64,000 nt of DNA from an uncultured Mollicutes bacterium (GTDB taxonomy: Bacteria > Bacillota_I > Bacilli_A > Acholeplasmatales > Anaeroplasmataceae), in the NCBI GenBank assembly GCA_945923475.1, contig CAMELE010000001.1:99875-163874 (forward strand), read 5' to 3'. The number at the start of each line of letters is the position of its first letter. The first letter of the stretch is position 1. Shown here one piece after another: positions 1 to 64,000 of this stretch. Made by a program: the position numbers and the translations under genes. Below the pieces are notes generated by a model. The model was not told the origin of the DNA. It saw nothing but the letters and a program-made list of their open reading frames with translations, and did no database searches.

Positions 1-15
1 AAGTGAGGATAAATT

Positions 16-216
16 ATGGAAAAAGAAATTGTTTATAGATATATGGGTTCTAACGGTATTATTGAATCTTCTATATAGTTAACAGGAATTCCTGCAACTA
101 CTTTATATAGATTAATAGCAGATTACAATAAAAAATTAACAAGAGATGGAAAAGAATTCTTTTCCATCTCTCCTTTAGTTCCTGAAAATGAATTAAAAGA
201 ATGGTATGAGGTTTAA
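16..216 (+). CDS. hypothetical small protein (66 aa; 1 in-frame TAG)
   Basis: ATG at 16 and TAA at 214-216. An in-frame TAG at 76-78 must be read as sense. Confidence 0.4.
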
Positions 217-249
217 ATAGGCCAGAATACATTGATTTAAATATAAAAA

Positions 250-294
250 AAATTAGGTTAAATAGGAAAAGAAACTATTTAACCTAATTTTTTT
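250..294 (+). terminator. rho-independent terminator
   Basis: Inverted repeat attaggttaaatag / ctatttaacctaat followed by a T6 run. Confidence 0.6.
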
Positions 295-312
295 AGAAAG
301 GAAGAGATAGAT

Positions 313-1989
313 TTGATAGTTAAAAATGATAGTGTTATCGAACAAGCTAAGTGGGAAGAACTTCAAAAGAAAATTAATACTTTAGCTAAAGATAATAAAA
401 TAAAAAACGTTAATGGAAAAATCGTTGAAATAAAATCTATTGAAGACTATTATAGTAACATCACTGGTATTGTTCAAATGAAGAAACTAGATCCATCCGT
501 TCTTCGCATACCTTTAGATGAGCCTATTATAAATATAAATGCTGATACTCGTCAAATTGAATTAACTAAAGAATTTGGAAAAACTCAACTACTTACTGTT
601 GAAAATGATCATTTGGCAGAAACAATTTATTTTCAAATTGATAGATATTTTGATTTACAAGATTTAGCAGCTGATGATATTAAAATTTATATTTAGTATT
701 ATTTAAACGATCAAATTCAAGGTTATTCTGAAGCTATTTGCCCCGATATTGGTACTGCTGGAAAATTAATTTTTGGTTGGCAAATTAGTGATGAAGTAAC
801 TAGTGAACCTGGTACTTTATAGTTTTCTATTATTTTCTTCAAAAAAAATCCAAAAGATAATAATAATTTAATGTATGTATTTAATACATTACCCGCACAA
901 ATGGTTATCAATAAAACTTTAGATATTGATGAAGACTTAGTTACTGCGCAACCTGTTGATTATTTAACTGGGTATTTAGAAAGTTTAATTGATTCAAAGA
1001 AATCCGCGGGCTTTGGAGTTCCTGATAATGTGGCTTTCTTGACAAGTATTTTAAATAATAAATCAGTTTATTTAACTGGTGATAAATTATATGCTTTAGC
1101 TTATAATGATACTTTAAACAATCCAGACAATACTACTATTGAATATAAATGGATTTGTAATTATAGAGGAACTAATACTGAATTAAAAAATGGTATTGGC
1201 TATGAATACAAAAAAATTGTTGATGATAATAGTATTTTTAGCGGAGATATGGCCTATAACGAAAAATTAACTTATTTCACTAAAAATGGAGATACTTATA
1301 TTAATAGTAGTAGCGATATTAATCTTGAAAATTATGTTGCTAAAAAGAATGATCTTTATTTAAAAGTCCAATATTGTGAAGTCGATGGGTGCGGAAGCTA
1401 TAGTGTAACCGCCTGTGGTACGACCGCAAATCAAGTAAGTAGAGAAGTTAAATGGGTAGGATTAAGTGTTGTTGTGGAAGGTATTAGTGAAGATTTTAAA
1501 ATTATTCTTGATCCCTCTCCTGATAATGGATGTTATTATGGTTCTTCTAATACAATTACTGCTATTGGGTAGAATGATGAAGGAGTTCAATGTACTTATC
1601 TTTGGACAAAGAATGGGTCTGAATTTAGCAATGAAAAAACTGTAACTTTAACTCAAGAAGATAATTATACCTTAACAGTTCATGGGTATAAAAATAAAGA
1701 TAATATAGATTATGGTCCAATTAATTTTACTAATTATTTTGATCCTATCAATTTAGTGCCTACTGGTGAAGTAAGAACTGAAAATGGAAAATATATTGTT
1801 AATATCACTAACACTAGTGAGTTGGGAAATGGAATTTATGAATATTAGTGGAAAAATGCTGAAGGCGTTACTCAAATAACTACTTCTGGGACTAATAACG
1901 CAATAGAAATAAATGAAAATATTACTCAAGTGGCTGTTATTATTAAAAAAGGTGAAAGAAATTCAAAGCCAGGAGTACTTACGATATAA
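313..1989 (+). CDS. tail fibre / receptor-binding-like structural protein, paralog A (about 558 aa, several in-frame TAG)
   Basis: TTG start after a GGAAG RBS. Frame 1 is continuous through TAGs at 694-696, 829-831, 1573-1575 and 1846-1848 and ends at TAA 1987-1989. The N-terminal module is paralogous to 2002..2622. Confidence 0.55.
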
Positions 1990-2001
1990 GAGGTAAGATA
2001 A

Positions 2002-2622
2002 ATGATAACTAATCCAACTGATTATTATAGCGTTTTACATCAAATACAAGATGAAAATTTTCCAGTAAAATATCCAGCTTTTCCTGCTCCAGAAGATGAA
2101 AAATTAGTTTAGGTAAATTTAAATTCAAGGACTATTAGTAATGAAAATAATTATATTACAGTTGAAGGCGACCATGCTGCTGAAATTATTTATTTTGAAG
2201 TAGATAGATATTTTGACACTATGGATTTAACTAATATGATGTGTATTATTTAGTATATTAATGCTGACAATGAAAAACGTATTTATCCAGTTCCATATTA
2301 TGATACTTTAACTCATAAAGATAAAATTATTTTTCCTTGGGTTTTAAATTATAGTGCTACTAAAAAATCTGGCAATTTAAATTATATGATAACTTTTTAC
2401 AAAATAGAAAAAGATTCTAATAATTTATTATATAATTTAAATACATTGCCAGCAAGTCTTTAGATTTATTCTAAGCTCAATTTAGATTCTATTGTAAAAG
2501 AAGAAGATTATTATGTAATTGATGATAGCCAAGTAGTTCAACAAATTTGGGAGCGTTTAGCTCGTTTAGAAGGATTTGTTGGTGGTAATGGGTTGGATGT
2601 TTATTGGATTGTTCTTGAATAA
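2002..2622 (+). CDS. structural protein, paralog B of the 313..1989 N-terminal module (206 aa, 3 TAG)
   Basis: Shared motifs with paralog A: GDHAAEIIYFEVDRYFD vs NDHLAETIYFQIDRYFD, and NNLLYNLNTLPA vs NNLMYVFNTLPA. Ends at TAA 2620-2622. Confidence 0.55.
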
Positions 2623-61806: not shown

Positions 61807-62012
61807 TATTCAATCACCCAATAAATAGTTTTTCCATTTCCGCAATTAGATTTACCAACTAATCCATGAGAAACAAGTCCACGGAGAACACCACTTACAG
61901 ATGAAGGAGACATATCTACATTATGAGTCTTTTTAATCCATCCAGAAAGCTGAGACGCGGAAACGCACTTATACTTTTTAAGAGTATCAATAACAATTTC
62001 TTTCTTTTCCAT
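61806..62012 (-). CDS. winged-helix protein (68 aa)
   Basis: ORF. Confidence 0.3.
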   Translation of the reverse strand: MEKKEIVIDTLKKYKCVSASQLSGWIKKTHNVDMSPSSVSGVLRGLVSHGLVGKSNCGNGKTIYWVIE

Positions 62013-62042
62013 AAATACTATCTCCTTTAATTTTATATATAT

Positions 62043-62071
62043 ATTATATTATATTTTTATAAAAAAATCAA
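62043..62071 (-). promoter_or_regulatory. sigma70-like promoter TTGATT-N17-TATAAT
   Basis: Downstream (minus sense) of terminator 62083-62109. Confidence 0.5.
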
Positions 62072-62082
62072 TAAAAAGAAAA

Positions 62083-62109
62083 AGGCGAGGTAGAATATAC
62101 CTCGCCTTA
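62083..62109 (-). terminator. hairpin terminator after MVP-like gene
   Basis: Stem aaggcgaggta / tacctcgcctt followed by a T-run on the minus strand. Confidence 0.55.
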
Positions 62110-62126
62110 TATTAAACTGAAATTAA

Positions 62127-64000
62127 TCAGTTATTGTTGCTATTGGGAACGAACTTATTGACAATACCTTCAAGGGTAGTACCACGAAGGAGACGATCAA
62201 CAAATTCAGCAGCGGATTCACCATTACCAATTGCGTAAGGAGCAATACCGGTAGCGATGCTATTGAATACCTTACTATCACTTTGAGCCTGAATAGCCGC
62301 CACAAGATCGGGCTGAATAGACTTCATAACATCAGCAACAGTCTTTGCATAAGCTTCCTGCTTTGCCTTTTCGATATCAGCAAGGACTTTCTTTTCTGCA
62401 ATATTAGCATCAGTTTCCTTCTGCTTACGAGCCATTTCTGCCTCATGGATCGCATCAATAAGAACCTGCATATCCTTTTCTGCCTGCTTAGCAGCCTGCT
62501 TTTCAGCTTCCTGCTTACGATTAACTTCAGCCTGAATTTCAAGCTTACGACGGGCTTCCTCACCCTGAAGATTCATGCGATTAATAAGCTTGGTACTAGC
62601 CAGCTCATTTTCCTTCTTTTCTGCATCAAACAGTGCTTCCGCAACTTTAACACGGGCTTCCGCGTCAGAAAGCTCAAGGCTCTTTTCAACCATATCGCGC
62701 TGATGGCGTTCAAGGATTTCCGCAATCTCACTCTCAACAGTAAGAGAGAGAACCTCGCAATCCTTTACAAACATACCATTTTCGCGGAAGAAACGTCCTT
62801 CATGCTTATTAGAAGCCTTTTCGGAAGTTGTATTTTCAGAATAATCAATAGCAATATTACGAACGATATCACTGTAATTCTGATAGAAGTCTTCAATAGT
62901 ATGCTTCTTAACTTCGCGCTTCAGAAGAGAACGAATACGATCGCAAAGATACTTAACATAATTGTCAACAGAGAACCAACTGTCCATATAAGCAGGATCA
63001 AAGTCAACGCAATAAGAAACCTTTACAGAACATTCAACAAAGTCCTTAGTCTCGACGGAGATAATGTCAGAAACCTTATTATTCTCATAACGAAGGAATA
63101 CAGTATGTTCAACCTTATCAGTAGTCTTAGGATTGCCCGTGCTCAGCTGAAGCTCCTCAAGGGTCTGATCGTAATCGAGGAGAATAGTCTGCGGACCGCG
63201 GACAACCTTACGAGTGCCGTTCTTAGAAACGACATTAACTGCATAACCAGTCCAAACATTAAGACTTACAACACCATCATACTTATTATCAAGAGTAATG
63301 GTGCGAGGCTTAGTGTAAGAAGTTCCGCGAGAAATACCAGCATTGCTCTCAAGGTAAGCAAGGGTCTGAAATTCACGATTGATATTACTTACACTATTGG
63401 TAACAACACTGTAAGCAGTTGCGGTAGAGCTATCAAGATTCGCGGTAGCCGCCTTAACGCTCTTAGCAATAGCCTTTTCAAGAGACTTCTCGGTAAGACC
63501 AGCATTATAAGCAAGAGCAGTCTGATTACCAGGATACCACAGATTGCACTCACGCTGGCTCAGCTTACGCTTAACAACAACTTCCATACGAGGATCAGGA
63601 AGATACATCGCGGGACCGCGAACTGTCTTAATTTCGCCATTCATGCGGTTCATTACATAGATACCTTCGCCGTCAGGGATAGCAATCGCATGATGAAGAA
63701 TCTTTTCATCGTAATTGATAATTGCATGCTCAGGACGAGGATAATAAATCATCTGGTCATCGCCAGTAATAAACAACTCTTCGCCAACAGGATGAACAGT
63801 ACCGTCATCATCAGCATATTCAGCAATTACCTTAACATAAATACCAGAAATCTTAGACAGCTCAATAGCACGGAAAATAAATCCGCCCTTGGGAGAGGTC
63901 ACAAAACTTTCAGTAGGTTCAGGGAACACAACCTCGGGACCATGGACATAACGCTTATTACCATCTTCATCCTTAAGGATACAATACTCAAGACGTTCAA
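62127..64000 (-). CDS. major vault protein (MVP)-like protein, 5-prime end beyond the window
   Basis: Repeats of the vault-repeat pattern (HGPEVVFPEPTE, RGPAMYLPDPRME, RGPQTILLDYDQT), a central shoulder-like region and a long C-terminal coiled-coil cap-helix. The reading frame stays open to position 64000. About 45% GC. Confidence 0.5.
   Translation of the reverse strand, partial: ERLEYCILKDEDGNKRYVHGPEVVFPEPTESFVTSPKGGFIFRAIELSKISGIYVKVIAEYADDDGTVHPVGEELFITGDDQMIYYPRPEHAIINYDEKILHHAIAIPDGEGIYVMNRMNGEIKTVRGPAMYLPDPRMEVVVKRKLSQRECNLWYPGNQTALAYNAGLTEKSLEKAIAKSVKAATANLDSSTATAYSVVTNSVSNINREFQTLAYLESNAGISRGTSYTKPRTITLDNKYDGVVSLNVWTGYAVNVVSKNGTRKVVRGPQTILLDYDQTLEELQLSTGNPKTTDKVEHTVFLRYENNKVSDIISVETKDFVECSVKVSYCVDFDPAYMDSWFSVDNYVKYLCDRIRSLLKREVKKHTIEDFYQNYSDIVRNIAIDYSENTTSEKASNKHEGRFFRENGMFVKDCEVLSLTVESEIAEILERHQRDMVEKSLELSDAEARVKVAEALFDAEKKENELASTKLINRMNLQGEEARRKLEIQAEVNRKQEAEKQAAKQAEKDMQVLIDAIHEAEMARKQKETDANIAEKKVLADIEKAKQEAYAKTVADVMKSIQPDLVAAIQAQSDSKVFNSIATGIAPYAIGNGESAAEFVDRLLRGTTLEGIVNKFVPNSNNN

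What the first reader, a model, noticed from the sequence alone, without database searches (positions are those of the whole stretch)
1..64000. Amber (TAG) codon read as sense, most likely Gln, across the genome
Dozens of genes are continuous only if TAG is translated, and no gene needs TAA or TGA read-through. In both GIY-YIG endonucleases TAG falls at canonical glutamine positions (YIG-Q-S and RE-Q-YY). In NrdD the essential glycyl-radical motif (RRVTGYL...) lies downstream of a TAG. The standard-code six-frame track therefore fragments or misses many genes, including NrdD, the RecJ-like exonuclease, the endolysin, RuvC and all late genes. No suppressor tRNA(CUA) or release-factor gene was recognised in this window, so these must be elsewhere in the genome.
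Basis: partly seen in the sequence, partly recalled or inferred. Interest (0 to 1): 0.75.

Follow-up and report, generated by a model that had tools for sequence, protein, structure and literature searches.

The report
Phage reads amber codon as glutamine
This 64-kb piece of a roughly 195-kb gut-type phage uses the stop codon TAG as a sense codon, almost certainly glutamine, in about 30-37 of its 88 genes. This is a real but already well-described phage trick, and close relatives carry the matching suppressor tRNA about 21 kb past the window end.

Summary
With TAG read as sense, the window gives 88 genes at 91% coding density, with 100 in-frame TAGs in 37 genes. Of these, 71 TAGs in 27 genes lie at least 10 residues inside protein alignments to relatives under 80% identical.

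- **Continuity:** NrdD, the RecJ-like nuclease, the endolysin, a holin and the GIY-YIG endonucleases align to Pfam, PHROG or PDB homologues straight through their TAGs.
- **Amino acid:** In relatives, window TAGs are replaced mainly by CAA and CAG. A likelihood test picks Gln by 49 natural-log units over Lys.
- **Termination:** TAG never replaces a TAA or TGA terminator in TAG-using relatives.
- **Uneven use:** TAG makes up 14% of "Gln" codons overall. It is common in tail, lysis, nuclease and homing-endonuclease genes. It is nearly absent from Pol III alpha, gyrase, ligase and the 46-64 kb RNA-repair block. The same split holds in relatives.
- **Suppressor tRNA:** Close relatives carry a tRNA(CUA) between tRNA-Val and tRNA-Tyr, about 21 kb beyond the window end. 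All its variants have a pyrimidine-pyrimidine 1-72 mismatch plus G73, which is Gln-like.

This is code 15 as described by Ivanova, Yutin, Borges and Peters, so it is a new member of a known kind. No release-factor gene was found, and there is no proteomic proof.

The parts
1..8077 (+). Late block on the + strand: tail-fibre-like genes 478-1989, 2002-2622 and 2695-3723; holin 3758-4168; unknown virion-type genes 5173-8077. All 11 + strand gene models carry at least one in-frame TAG (27 TAGs), and the one - strand gene inside the block (4213-4929) carries two more. The block total is 29 TAGs, 28% of its TAG+CAA+CAG codons.
   Evidence: Gene model, TAG coordinates, holin phrog_13712 E 8e-38 aligned across the TAG at 4016, regional share.
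8620..9165 (-). RuvC-like resolvase with 3 in-frame TAGs (8992, 8815, 8725).
   Evidence: Pfam RuvC E 7.9e-4, below the cut-off. TAGs are conserved in 19-22 relatives. TAG share is 50% in diverged relatives.
10766..11293 (-). NrdG-type activase with 1 in-frame TAG (10808).
   Evidence: Relatives have TAG 21 and CAA 6 at that site. The function comes from my reading of the translation. The annotated relative Thomasclavelia phage TR-TP1 also carries an anaerobic ribonucleotide reductase small-subunit gene near its NrdD. No family search was run on this gene.
12275..14560 (-). NrdD anaerobic ribonucleotide reductase with 5 in-frame TAGs (13844, 13130, 12911, 12383, 12284). The glycyl-radical motif lies downstream of the TAG at 12383.
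   Evidence: Pfam NRDD 2-562/562, E 1e-143. PDB 8p23 aligns 8-743. Direct translation. Relatives show CAA/CAG/TAG at 4 of the 5 sites.
15140..19129 (-). DNA polymerase III alpha, 1329 aa, with no TAG among 50 Gln codons. An example of the TAG-avoiding class.
   Evidence: Pfam PHP, DNA_pol3_alpha, finger and HHH_6. 0/50 here and 4/392 in relatives.
22922..24688 (-). RecJ-like DHH exonuclease with 7 in-frame TAGs.
   Evidence: Pfam DHH, DHHA1 and RecJ_OB. PDB 8y30 aligns 47-574; its Gln aligns with the last two TAGs. TAG share is 34% in relatives.
26619..28151 (-). DnaB-type helicase with 2 N-terminal TAGs (28083, 27975).
   Evidence: Relatives have TAG/CAA at both sites. The function comes from my reading of the translation. 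TR-TP1 also carries an annotated DnaB-like helicase in the same replication block. No family search was run on this gene.
32090..33109 (-). Coiled-coil protein with a C-terminal GIY-YIG domain, 3 TAGs.
   Evidence: Translation. TAG share is 31% over 36 relatives.
38445..39188 (-). GIY-YIG homing endonuclease with 5 TAGs, lying between gyrB pieces.
   Evidence: PDB I-TevI 1mk0 E 1e-5, aligned across two TAGs.
39701..40489 (-). GIY-YIG homing endonuclease with 6 TAGs. The 'YIG-TAG-S' site is CAA or TAG in relatives and Gln in the two paralogues.
   Evidence: PDB I-TevI 1ln0 E 3.5e-5. Relatives have CAA 3 and TAG 2.
43318..44691 (-). Endolysin (lysozyme plus amidase) with 9 in-frame TAGs. The most TAG-rich gene in the window.
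   Evidence: Pfam Phage_lysozyme2 E 5e-28 and Amidase_2 E 4e-26. PDB amidases align across the TAG at 43717. Direct translation.
34985..42151 (-). Gyrase genes: GyrA 34985-37438 and the GyrB N-terminal part 40574-42118. They are essentially TAG-free: one TAG at GyrA codon 9, which may lie upstream of the true start.
   Evidence: Pfam DNA_gyraseB, Toprim and HATPase_c. GyrB-N 0/470 and GyrA 9/807 TAG in relatives. GyrA is named from my reading of the translation; no family search was run on it.
46236..64000 (-). TAG-poor block: 8 doubtful TAGs against 165 CAA+CAG. It holds SPFH, three metallophosphatases, AAA_33 kinase, Thg1-like, YqeY-like, an RNA-ligase-like gene, cREC_REC and an MVP-shoulder protein. 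It adjoins the tRNA array that starts about 2.5 kb beyond the window end in relatives.
   Evidence: Pfam, codon counts, relatives, tRNA array.

Best explanation
The window belongs to a roughly 190-200 kb tailed phage of a large, diverse clade. A standard-code relative of this clade has been cultured on Thomasclavelia, a Firmicute. In this phage TAG is a sense codon for glutamine (genetic code 15), and TAA and TGA remain the only terminators.

**Shown:**
- In-frame TAGs sit inside conserved, full-length domains.
- They interchange with CAA and CAG in relatives.
- They never stand in for terminators in TAG-using relatives.
- Close relatives carry a tRNA with anticodon CUA in a large tRNA array just beyond the window end.

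**Inferred:**
- The window's own genome carries that tRNA.
- A host enzyme charges it with glutamine, because every variant combines a U35-containing CUA anticodon with an unpaired 1-72 position and G73.
- The host itself uses the standard code.
- Genes needed first (Pol III alpha, gyrase, ligase, Sak4-like ATPase, the RNA-repair and tRNA-maintenance block) avoid TAG so that they can be made before the suppressor accumulates.
- Tail, holin, endolysin, RecJ/RuvC-type nuclease and homing-endonuclease genes are gated by TAG until it does. This is the timing model of Borges et al.
For: **Continuity across TAG:**

**Gln identity:**
- Codon tables.
- Likelihood test with control.
- Relatives with no in-frame TAG: Q is 39% of aligned residues against a 3.5% background.
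- CAA and CAG sites are replaced by TAG at equal per-codon rates (18.7% and 16.5%). This argues for shared amino-acid identity rather than one-step mutational proximity, because CAA is two steps from TAG. The one-step neighbours that appear in the ranking, AAG and GAG, are at 3-4%.

**Terminators:**

**Uneven use:** permutation p = 2e-4, and the same gene-by-gene split in diverged relatives.

**Suppressor tRNA(CUA)**, between tRNA-Val and tRNA-Tyr:
- 73-nt form in the nearest relative and two others (L193, L194, L198).
- 90-nt form in seven contigs.
- 72-nt form in L201, next to tRNA-Gln(UUG).
- As called by the automatic parse, 11 of 13 distinct CUA sequences have U or C at position 1 opposite U or C at 72, plus G73. 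The other two were re-read by hand: the L117/L192 form also reads U1.U72 with G73, and the L127/L128 form reads A1-U72 with G73.

**tRNA identity rules** (review PMC9976931):
- Bacterial Gln identity is G73, U1-A72, G2-C71, G3-C70, G10, U35, A37.
- Tyr and Leu need A73.
- G1-C72 and G2-C71 are conserved in most bacterial tRNA-Ser.
- Amber derivatives of tRNA-Trp, tRNA-fMet and an acceptor-stem mutant of tRNA-Ser are glutaminylated.

**Precedent:** Borges et al., bioRxiv 10.1101/2021.08.26.457843.
Against: - No tRNA lies in the window itself, and I could not fetch the window's own genome. The nearest relative is about 98% identical, not identical.
- The amino acid is inferred from comparative data only.
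- At several TAG sites, solved standard-code homologues do not have Gln: F/Y/Y at NrdD codon 534, K/V/T at codon 710, H/Y at RecJ codon 70, and Ser at 'YIGxS' in I-TevI.
- The 90-nt suppressor variant has a long variable arm like Ser, Leu and Tyr tRNAs. Its anticodon arm is nearly identical to that of the neighbouring tRNA-Tyr.
- It lacks G3-C70 and U38 of the E. coli Gln identity set.
- Many Firmicutes make Gln-tRNA by transamidation, which is reported to rely on U1-A72. How a U.U or U.C tRNA would pass that route is unknown.
- No RF2-type gene was found, though less than the whole genome was seen.
- The early/late timing model rests on gene function and TAG distribution only. Some replication and nucleotide-metabolism genes (NrdD, NrdG, DnaB, ThyX, SF1 helicase) do contain TAG.
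Confidence: 0.86

Rival explanations
1. TAG is sense but is decoded as another amino acid. Candidates are Ser or Tyr, because the 90-nt suppressor variant is a long-variable-arm tRNA whose anticodon arm matches the neighbouring tRNA-Tyr, or Lys/Glu, the next-best residues in alignments.
For: - The 90-nt tRNA(CUA) has a long variable arm, and its best though weak similarity is to tRNA-Tyr(GUA).
- G73 also fits bacterial tRNA-Ser.
- K, E and N are the next most common residues opposite TAG.
Against: - The likelihood test favours Gln by 49 natural-log units over Lys, 64 over Glu and 107 over Ser. Tyr did not rank among the eight best amino acids.
- TAT is opposite TAG at only 6 positions and Ser codons at about 20, against 70 for Gln.
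- Tyr and Leu identity need A73, but all variants have G73.
- Most bacterial tRNA-Ser keep G1-C72, but here 1-72 is mismatched.
- The nearest relative has a 73-nt suppressor with no long arm at the same site.
Confidence: 0.06
2. The host, not just the phage, uses a TAG=Gln code, so no switch in coding is involved and the uneven TAG use is only codon bias.
For: Nothing in the window identifies the host or its code. Some replication and nucleotide-metabolism genes do contain TAG.
Against: - TAG avoidance in Pol III alpha, gyrase, ligase and the 46-64 kb block is strong and conserved in diverged relatives (0-1% against 27-50% elsewhere). Plain codon bias would not obviously produce this.
- The phage carries its own suppressor.
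- The clade includes a TAG-free member (L016) and members that end Pol III in TAG (L019, L020, L025).
- The cultured relative, Thomasclavelia phage TR-TP1, is annotated in the standard code.
- Borges et al. found such phages in standard-code hosts.
- From my own knowledge, no bacterium with TAG=Gln is known.
Confidence: 0.04
3. The TAGs are true stops. On this view the genes are fragmented pseudogenes or assembly errors, or are expressed only by rare leaky read-through.
For: A standard-code ORF list does give fragments. A few TAGs sit within 10 codons of a gene end and could terminate there.
Against: - The same TAGs are conserved in up to 22 independent contigs and are replaced by sense codons, chiefly Gln, in others.
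- Essential catalytic motifs lie downstream of TAGs.
- Nine TAGs in the endolysin would abolish any product under leaky read-through.
- TAG is excluded from terminator positions.
- A dedicated tRNA(CUA) exists in relatives.
Confidence: 0.02
4. TAG encodes pyrrolysine. ARAGORN labels the tRNA 'tRNA-Pyl'.
For: Only the ARAGORN label, which follows from the CUA anticodon.
Against: - The 73-, 75- and 90-nt suppressor forms fold as ordinary cloverleaves with a 5-bp anticodon stem and G18G19. This differs from the compact tRNA-Pyl as I recall it.
- None of the 40 window proteins scanned against Pfam gave a PylS or PylBCD-type hit.
- Alignments favour Gln over Lys-like residues by 49 natural-log units.
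Confidence: 0.01

Closest known systems
TAG-to-Gln (code 15) recoded gut phages: crAss-like phages, Lak phages and the Garnet/Amethyst/Jade/Sapphire/Agate clades of Borges et al. (bioRxiv 10.1101/2021.08.26.457843), with proteomic validation in crAss-like phages by Peters et al. (PMC9523058)
   Same: - In-frame TAG in structural and lysis genes.
- Variable use in replication genes.
- Phage-encoded suppressor tRNA(CUA).
- Relatives in one clade that use standard, TAG-recoded and possibly TGA-recoded codes.
- Genome size near the roughly 200-kb Jade/Sapphire classes.
- Structural and lysis genes in several separate modules.
   Different: - I could not show that this clade is one of the named ones.
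- It is not crAss-like: Pol III alpha replication, NrdD/NrdG, gyrase, and similarity to Thomasclavelia phage TR-TP1.
- No RF2 or aminoacyl-tRNA synthetase gene was seen in the parts fetched.
- The suppressor comes in at least three very different sequences at one locus.
Phassvirus group (phAss-1, 136 kb; Babkin et al. 2023, PMC10607447)
   Same: Human-gut phage with TAG in 41 ORFs and suppressor tRNA genes. It is reported as needing an alternative translation table.
   Different: The genome is smaller (136 kb against about 195 kb). I read only the abstract and did not test relatedness.
Thomasclavelia phage TR-TP1 / TR-TP2 (PQ571309, PQ571310)
   Same: - NrdD shares about 70% nucleotide identity with the window over the aligned part.
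- The TR-TP1 record also carries Pol III alpha-type polymerase, NrdG-type, DnaB, ThyX, Sak4-like and resolvase genes in a similar replication block.
   Different: - 90-100 kb genomes annotated in the standard code.
- NrdD and polymerase genes are split by HNH endonucleases.
- No evidence of TAG recoding.
Laboratory amber suppressors and identity switches in E. coli (supE tRNA-Gln; amber tRNA-Trp, tRNA-fMet and acceptor-stem mutants of amber tRNA-Ser charged with Gln; review PMC9976931)
   Same: A CUA anticodon keeps U35. G73 plus a weak or unpaired 1-72 position are the features that direct or redirect charging to glutamine.
   Different: These are natural phage genes with varied bodies (class I and long-arm forms). 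They lack G3-C70 and U38, and the charging enzyme and host are unknown.

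Membership tests
Code-15 (TAG=Gln) recoded phage | In-frame TAG inside conserved protein-coding genes, with homology continuing in frame on both sides. | tested here: met
   71 of 100 TAGs in 27 genes lie at least 10 aa inside alignments to relatives under 80% identical. Pfam and PDB alignments span the TAGs.
Code-15 (TAG=Gln) recoded phage | TAG positions correspond to glutamine in homologues. | tested here: met
   CAA and CAG dominate the non-TAG codons. Gln is best by 49 natural-log units. 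Q is 39% against a 3.5% background in TAG-free relatives. Solved distant homologues are mixed.
Code-15 (TAG=Gln) recoded phage | TAG is not used as a terminator; TAA and TGA are. | tested here: met
   In TAG-using relatives none of about 1170 aligned terminator codons is TAG, while there are 58 TAA/TGA swaps. TAG appears only in L019, L020 and L025.
Code-15 (TAG=Gln) recoded phage | Phage-encoded suppressor tRNA with anticodon CUA. | tested here: inconclusive
   Absent from the window. Present at a fixed site in 11 close relatives, including the nearest one at about 98% identity. The window's own genome could not be fetched.
Code-15 (TAG=Gln) recoded phage | Recoded codon enriched in late, structural and lysis genes and avoided in genes needed early. 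| tested here: met
   Heterogeneity p = 2e-4. The split is conserved in relatives. The holin and endolysin contain TAG. Expression timing itself was not measured, and several nucleotide-metabolism genes also contain TAG.
Code-15 (TAG=Gln) recoded phage | Gln found at TAG sites in peptides. | not testable with these tools
   Needs proteomics of virions or infected cells.
Code-15 (TAG=Gln) recoded phage | Accessory code-change genes (RF2, GlnRS). These are optional and were found in a minority of such phages by Borges et al. | tested here: inconclusive
   No GGQ-domain match in the window or in clade loci among 3.3 Mb fetched.
tRNA-Gln identity (bacterial GlnRS set: G73, U1-A72, G2-C71, G3-C70, G10, U35, G36, A37, U38) | G73 discriminator, a weak or unpaired 1-72 pair with U1, and U35. 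| tested here: met
   As called, 11 of 13 distinct CUA tRNA sequences in the clade have U1 or C1 opposite U72 or C72, plus G73. A hand re-reading of the other two also gives G73, with U1.U72 in one and A1-U72 in the other. The identity rules come from PMC9976931.
tRNA-Gln identity (bacterial GlnRS set: G73, U1-A72, G2-C71, G3-C70, G10, U35, G36, A37, U38) | G2-C71, G3-C70, G36 and U38. | tested here: not met
   The 90-nt and 73-nt forms have G2-C71, but they have C3-G70 or A3-U70, A36 (forced by the CUA anticodon) and A38. I therefore do not file them as bona fide tRNA-Gln, only as Gln-like at the acceptor end.
Pyrrolysine decoding | tRNA-Pyl architecture plus pylS and pylBCD genes. | tested here: not met
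   The main suppressor forms fold as ordinary cloverleaves. No Pyl-related Pfam hit among the 40 window proteins scanned. Gln is favoured over Lys.
Code 4/25 (TGA sense) | In-frame TGA in conserved genes. | tested here: not met
   22 genes end in TGA, and these align with TGA or TAA in relatives. Reading TGA as sense adds only 5 points of ORF coverage.

The most novel reading that the evidence does not exclude
The suppressor tRNAs of this clade may be a natural 'identity cassette'. At one fixed locus, genomes 92-99% similar carry at least three very different tRNA bodies, including a 90-nt long-variable-arm form. All share only a CUA anticodon loop, an unpaired pyrimidine-pyrimidine 1-72 position and G73. 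On this reading that minimal signature is what lets a host enzyme charge them with Gln, and the suppressor gene is being swapped repeatedly. A further speculation is that the adjacent, TAG-free Thg1-like (3'-5' nucleotide addition at tRNA 5' ends) and YqeY/GatB-like proteins take part in maturing or charging the mismatched suppressor. That would make the code switch depend on phage enzymes as well as on a tRNA.
Probability: 0.15. Interest if true: 0.55.

Novelty: new member of a known kind. Interest (0 to 1): 0.3.

Why it matters
**Practical.** Any standard-code annotation of this phage and its many relatives breaks or loses about a third of the genes. The losses include NrdD, the RecJ-like nuclease, the holin and endolysin, and the tail genes. 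These genomes must be called with translation table 15. Large public protein sets already hold full-length versions with Q at these sites.

**Biological.**
- It adds a large, abundant, probably Firmicute-infecting clade to the phages that change the meaning of TAG.
- The split between TAG-avoiding replication and RNA-repair genes and TAG-using tail, lysis, nuclease and homing-endonuclease genes is clean and conserved.
- The set of natural suppressor variants could be used to test which tRNA features allow glutamine charging.

It does not change current understanding of the phenomenon.

Tried and rejected
1. **Stop-blind six-frame tblastn** of the window against relatives, to count which stop codons are embedded in conserved alignments. 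It failed because off-frame translations of homologous DNA also align, so all three stops appeared 'embedded'. I replaced it with the terminator-conservation test and the divergent-alignment test.
2. **The search for homologous proteins with NrdD**. It returned only close relatives whose database translations already have Q at TAG. That is circular, so I did not use it as evidence for Gln.
3. **The listing of cluster members** gave no names or accessions.
4. **The 'tRNA-SeC(tca)' calls in close relatives** (L155:7726-7805, and an 80-nt call downstream of tRNA-Tyr in L198). I examined only the L155 sequence. It folds poorly, and its only BLAST match among the loci held at that point was itself, so I treat it as an ARAGORN false positive. 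The L198 call was not checked.
5. **Rfam** found nothing in the window.
6. **A release-factor probe** found nothing in the clade.
7. **Exact-pattern searches for the 90-nt suppressor** missed the nearest relative. That relative turned out to carry a different 73-nt suppressor at the same site.
8. **5'-editing of the suppressor by the Thg1-like enzyme** to restore a 1-72 pair. For the U.C variants this would give G1-C72, which is Glu-like, so I keep it only as low-probability speculation.

Full report
**What the window is.**
- It has 31.7% G+C. The gene models lie on the + strand from 1 to about 8.1 kb, apart from one - strand gene at 4213-4929, and on the - strand from there to 64 kb.
- ARAGORN finds no tRNA, and Rfam finds nothing at its gathering thresholds.
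- The only annotated phages with DNA similarity are Thomasclavelia phages TR-TP1 and TR-TP2 (NrdD about 70% identical) and, weakly, Enterococcus phages through a Pol III alpha-type polymerase.
- IMG/VR holds many relatives. Using Pol III alpha, the GyrB N-terminal part and the last gene as queries, I fetched 129 loci. The contigs reach 197 kb, and one has overlapping ends, which suggests a circular assembly.
- The nearest contig (IMGVR_UViG_3300045988_132576) is about 98% identical to the window. None is identical.

**Checking the observation.**
- Reading only TAA and TGA as stops gives 88 genes, 91.4% coding density, and 100 in-frame TAGs in 37 genes. All genes end in TAA (66) or TGA (22).
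- Coverage by ORFs of at least 150 aa rises from 0.57 to 0.79 when TAG is sense, with 13 more ORFs. It reaches only 0.62 when TGA is sense. Most relatives behave the same way; two of them go from 0.38-0.40 to 0.82-0.84.
- Homology runs through the TAGs:
  - Pfam NRDD covers profile positions 2-562 of 562 across four TAGs.
  - DHH, DHHA1 and RecJ_OB cover the RecJ-like gene.
  - Phage_lysozyme2 and Amidase_2 cover the endolysin, which has nine TAGs.
  - A holin family matches 3758-4168 across its TAG.
  - Solved structures of NrdD, RecJ, amidases and I-TevI align in frame on both sides of TAGs. The glycyl-radical motif RRVTGYL aligns with QRITGYL, KRTCGYL and RRTCAYL downstream of the TAG at 12383.
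- 71 TAGs in 27 genes lie at least 10 residues inside alignments to relatives under 80% identical. The other 29 are near gene ends or in poorly conserved genes.

**Which amino acid.**
- Opposite window TAGs, relatives have TAG 622 times, CAA 124, CAG 72, GAA 21 and AAA 18.
- Counting each position and codon once over all loci gives CAA 48, CAG 22, AAT 20, AAA 20 and GAA 18. By residue that is Q 70, K 31, E 26.
- In the reverse direction, 18.7% of window CAA sites and 16.5% of CAG sites have TAG in some relative. The figure is 4% or less for every codon counted at least 50 times in the window, and 8% (2 of 25) for the rare TCG.
- CAA is two mutational steps from TAG and CAG is one. Their equal rates point to shared meaning rather than proximity.
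- A likelihood comparison of the residues aligned to TAG with the profiles of the 20 amino acids puts Gln first, by 49 natural-log units over Lys and 107 over Ser. As a control, the same procedure assigns 56 of 58 sense codons correctly. The two failures are the single-codon amino acids Trp and Met, which the leave-one-out design cannot recover.
- In twelve relatives with no in-frame TAG at all, Gln is 30 of 76 residues opposite window TAGs, against a background of 3.5%.
- Distant solved homologues are mixed. Gln aligns at NrdD codon 223 (two of three structures) and at the last two RecJ TAGs. F/Y aligns at NrdD 534 and K/V/T at 710, and I-TevI has Ser, Asn and Lys at the GIY-YIG sites. At those same sites the phage clade itself uses CAA or CAG.

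**Terminators.**
- I extended each gene 15 codons past its stop and aligned the result to relatives.
- Window TAA aligns with TAA 806 times and TGA 34 times. Window TGA aligns with TGA 218 times and TAA 24 times.
- TAG takes a terminator's place only three times, all at the end of Pol III alpha in L019, L020 and L025. Those three distant relatives carry a tRNA with anticodon UCA instead.
- In the TAG-using part of the clade, then, TAG has been removed from terminator positions. This is what full reassignment predicts and what leaky read-through does not.

**TAG use is uneven.**
- TAG is 100 of 705 TAG+CAA+CAG codons (14%), with strong heterogeneity among genes (permutation p = 2e-4).
- By region it is 28% in the late block (1-8.1 kb), 27% at 8-15 kb, 5% at 15-22 kb and 4.6% at 46-64 kb.
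- Pol III alpha has 0 of 50.
- The split is conserved in relatives under 92% identical:

| TAG-avoiding genes | TAG share in relatives | TAG-using genes | TAG share in relatives |
|---|---|---|---|
| Pol III alpha | 1% | RecJ-like | 34% |
| GyrA | 1% | RuvC-like | 50% |
| GyrB N-terminal part | 0 of 470 | GIY-YIG genes | 27-32% |
| Ligase | 1% | Endolysin | 27% |
| Sak4-like ATPase | 2% | Tail-fibre-like gene | 43% |
| SPFH protein | 0 of 624 | Gene at 5173-5619 | 50% |
| MVP-shoulder protein | 0 of 478 | | |
| RNA-ligase-like gene | 1% | | |

- 'Across the genome' therefore needs qualifying. One class of genes avoids TAG and another uses it freely. NrdD, NrdG, DnaB, ThyX and an SF1 helicase sit in between.

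**The suppressor tRNA.**
- In relatives a tRNA array begins about 2.5 kb past the window end.
- Walking outwards with two more scans and two exact-pattern scans showed at least 27 anticodons in close relatives. A tRNA(CUA) always lies between tRNA-Val(UAC) and tRNA-Tyr(GUA), about 21 kb beyond position 64000.
- It comes in at least three very different sequences:
  - a 73-nt form in the nearest relative and two others (L193:7118-7190, L194, L198);
  - a 90-nt form with a long variable arm in seven contigs (for example L131:629-718);
  - a 72-nt form in L201, next to a tRNA-Gln(UUG).
- More distant relatives have further forms, some in tandem pairs.
- As parsed automatically, 11 of the 13 distinct CUA sequences have U or C at position 1 opposite U or C at position 72, plus G73. 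Re-reading the other two by hand gives U1.U72 with G73 for the L117/L192 form and A1-U72 with G73 for the L127/L128 form. The ordinary tRNA-Gln genes of the clade have U1-A72 or A1-U72 with G73.
- According to the identity review PMC9976931:
  - bacterial Gln identity includes G73, U1-A72, G2-C71, G3-C70, G10, U35 and A37;
  - Tyr and Leu require A73;
  - G1-C72 and G2-C71 are conserved in most bacterial tRNA-Ser;
  - amber derivatives of tRNA-Trp, tRNA-fMet and an acceptor-stem mutant of tRNA-Ser are charged with Gln.
- The acceptor end and U35 thus fit glutamine. G3-C70 and U38 are missing, and the long-arm form is unusual, so I do not call these bona fide tRNA-Gln.
- The UCA tRNAs of L019, L020 and L025 carry A1-U72, G2-C71, G3-C70 and G73, the bacterial Trp set. 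Whether those phages actually read TGA as sense was not established.

**Mechanism.**
- Shown: TAG is a sense codon; it is equivalent to Gln in evolution; TAA and TGA terminate; relatives encode the decoder.
- Inferred: the window's own genome has the same tRNA; a host enzyme charges it with Gln; the host uses the standard code; and TAG-free early genes are translated first while TAG-containing late genes wait for the suppressor. This last point is the model of Borges et al..
- No release-factor-like gene was detected in the window or in the clade loci fetched. That is not unusual, since Borges et al. found such genes only in a few genomes.

**Comparison with what is known.**
- TAG-to-Gln recoding in phages is established. 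Borges et al. describe it in Lak, crAss-like and six further clades, several of about 150-210 kb and several mixing codes 11, 15 and 4 within a clade, with suppressor tRNAs in 35-40% of genomes.
- Peters et al. confirmed code 15 by metaproteomics in crAss-like phages.
- Babkin et al. described another TAG-recoded gut group.
- The public protein collection already contains full-length NrdD of this clade translated with Q at the TAG sites.
- The finding is therefore a correct recognition of a known phenomenon in a clade I could not tie to a named one.
- What may be new is modest: the shared 1-72 mismatch plus G73 signature across otherwise unrelated suppressor sequences, their replacement at a single locus among near-identical genomes, and the very clean TAG-avoiding and TAG-using gene classes.

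**Verdict.** Observation confirmed. Interpretation supported, with corrections on uniformity. New member of a known kind, of low to moderate interest.

Noticed in passing
window 38117-42151 (-): gyrB appears split into three pieces: 40574-42118 (ATPase to Toprim), about 39286-39654 (contains '...FAPELIEKGYIYAAVPPLYK') and about 38117-38350 (canonical C-terminal end). Two GIY-YIG homing-endonuclease genes (39701-40474, 38445-39134) separate them. This looks like intron or intein-type insertions. Rfam found no group I intron at its gathering threshold.
   Followed up: partly
window 48545-61176 (-): A TAG-free block resembles an RNA/tRNA repair and maintenance module. It holds three metallophosphatases (48545-49105, 51274-51993, 58710-59492), an AAA_33 kinase (49090-49479), a Thg1-like 3'-5' nucleotidyltransferase (52332-53171), a YqeY/GatB-like protein (53171-53626), an RNA-ligase-like protein (55784-57163, below the Pfam cut-off) and a cREC_REC domain (60865-61176). 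It adjoins the tRNA array seen in relatives.
   Followed up: partly
window 46858-48243 and 62127-63752 (-): An SPFH/Band 7 protein and a protein with Major Vault Protein shoulder and repeat domains use almost only CAG for Gln (1 CAA : 20 CAG and 1 : 18). The window average is about 3.4 CAA : 1 CAG, and G+C rises to 0.37 at this end. This suggests recently acquired genes with foreign codon usage.
   Followed up: no
L091:5274-5402 (+), about 4.5 kb beyond the window end in a 94% relative: A RAGATH-33 RNA match above Rfam's gathering score (122.7 bits against 120.4) lies directly after tRNA-Leu(UAA) inside the phage tRNA array.
   Followed up: no
L193:7118-7190, L131:629-718, L201:6666-6737: Genomes 92-99% similar around this locus (84% for L201) carry three very different tRNA(CUA) sequences (73, 90 and 72 nt) at the same position between tRNA-Val and tRNA-Tyr. 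All are followed by the same trailer ('GCGGTG'). None of the three encodes CCA, unlike many of the other tRNAs in the array.
   Followed up: partly
L019:12245-12316, L020:12269-12340, L025:22156-22227 (-): Relatives with 53% Pol III identity carry a 72-nt tRNA(UCA) with the bacterial Trp acceptor set, and end Pol III alpha in TAG. L016 (57%) looks like standard code. The clade thus seems to contain TAG-recoded, possibly TGA-recoded and standard-code members. In-frame TGA was not seen in the replication genes aligned.
   Followed up: partly
close relatives: L184, L193, L130, L162 and others: The tRNA array of close relatives covers at least 27 anticodons for 18 amino acids. In the parts fetched it has no tRNA-Gln(UUG/CUG) and no tRNA-Trp. 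Only L201 has a tRNA-Gln, right next to the suppressor.
   Followed up: partly
L126:19035-19126; L117:4312-4398: Some ordinary tRNAs in the clade also carry long insertions in the variable region: a 92-nt tRNA-Gln(UUG) and an 87-nt tRNA-Lys(UUU). The long arm of the 90-nt suppressor is therefore not unique to it.
   Followed up: no
window 22029-22868 (-) vs 43318-44619 (-): There are two Phage_lysozyme2-domain genes. The first has a predicted N-terminal membrane segment and no TAG. The second, lysozyme plus amidase, has nine TAGs.
   Followed up: no
window 4213-4929 (-): A single - strand gene sits inside the + strand late block (phrog_8810, function unknown). Its sequence looks like a receiver/LytTR-type regulator. 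It has two TAGs near its start.
   Followed up: no
window 2695-3723 (+) vs L104:2-394: The C-terminal roughly 100 residues of the tail-fibre-like protein ('...KKYVDN...YIGST-TAG-PASG...WIDT...PVPVAW') have a paralogue beyond the tRNA array in relatives. There the TAG position is Ala.
   Followed up: no
L029 (PQ571309) 19987-23110: In Thomasclavelia phage TR-TP1, NrdD is annotated as two CDS separated by an HNH endonuclease gene, and the Pol III alpha-type polymerase is likewise split. Both genes are intact in the window.
   Followed up: no
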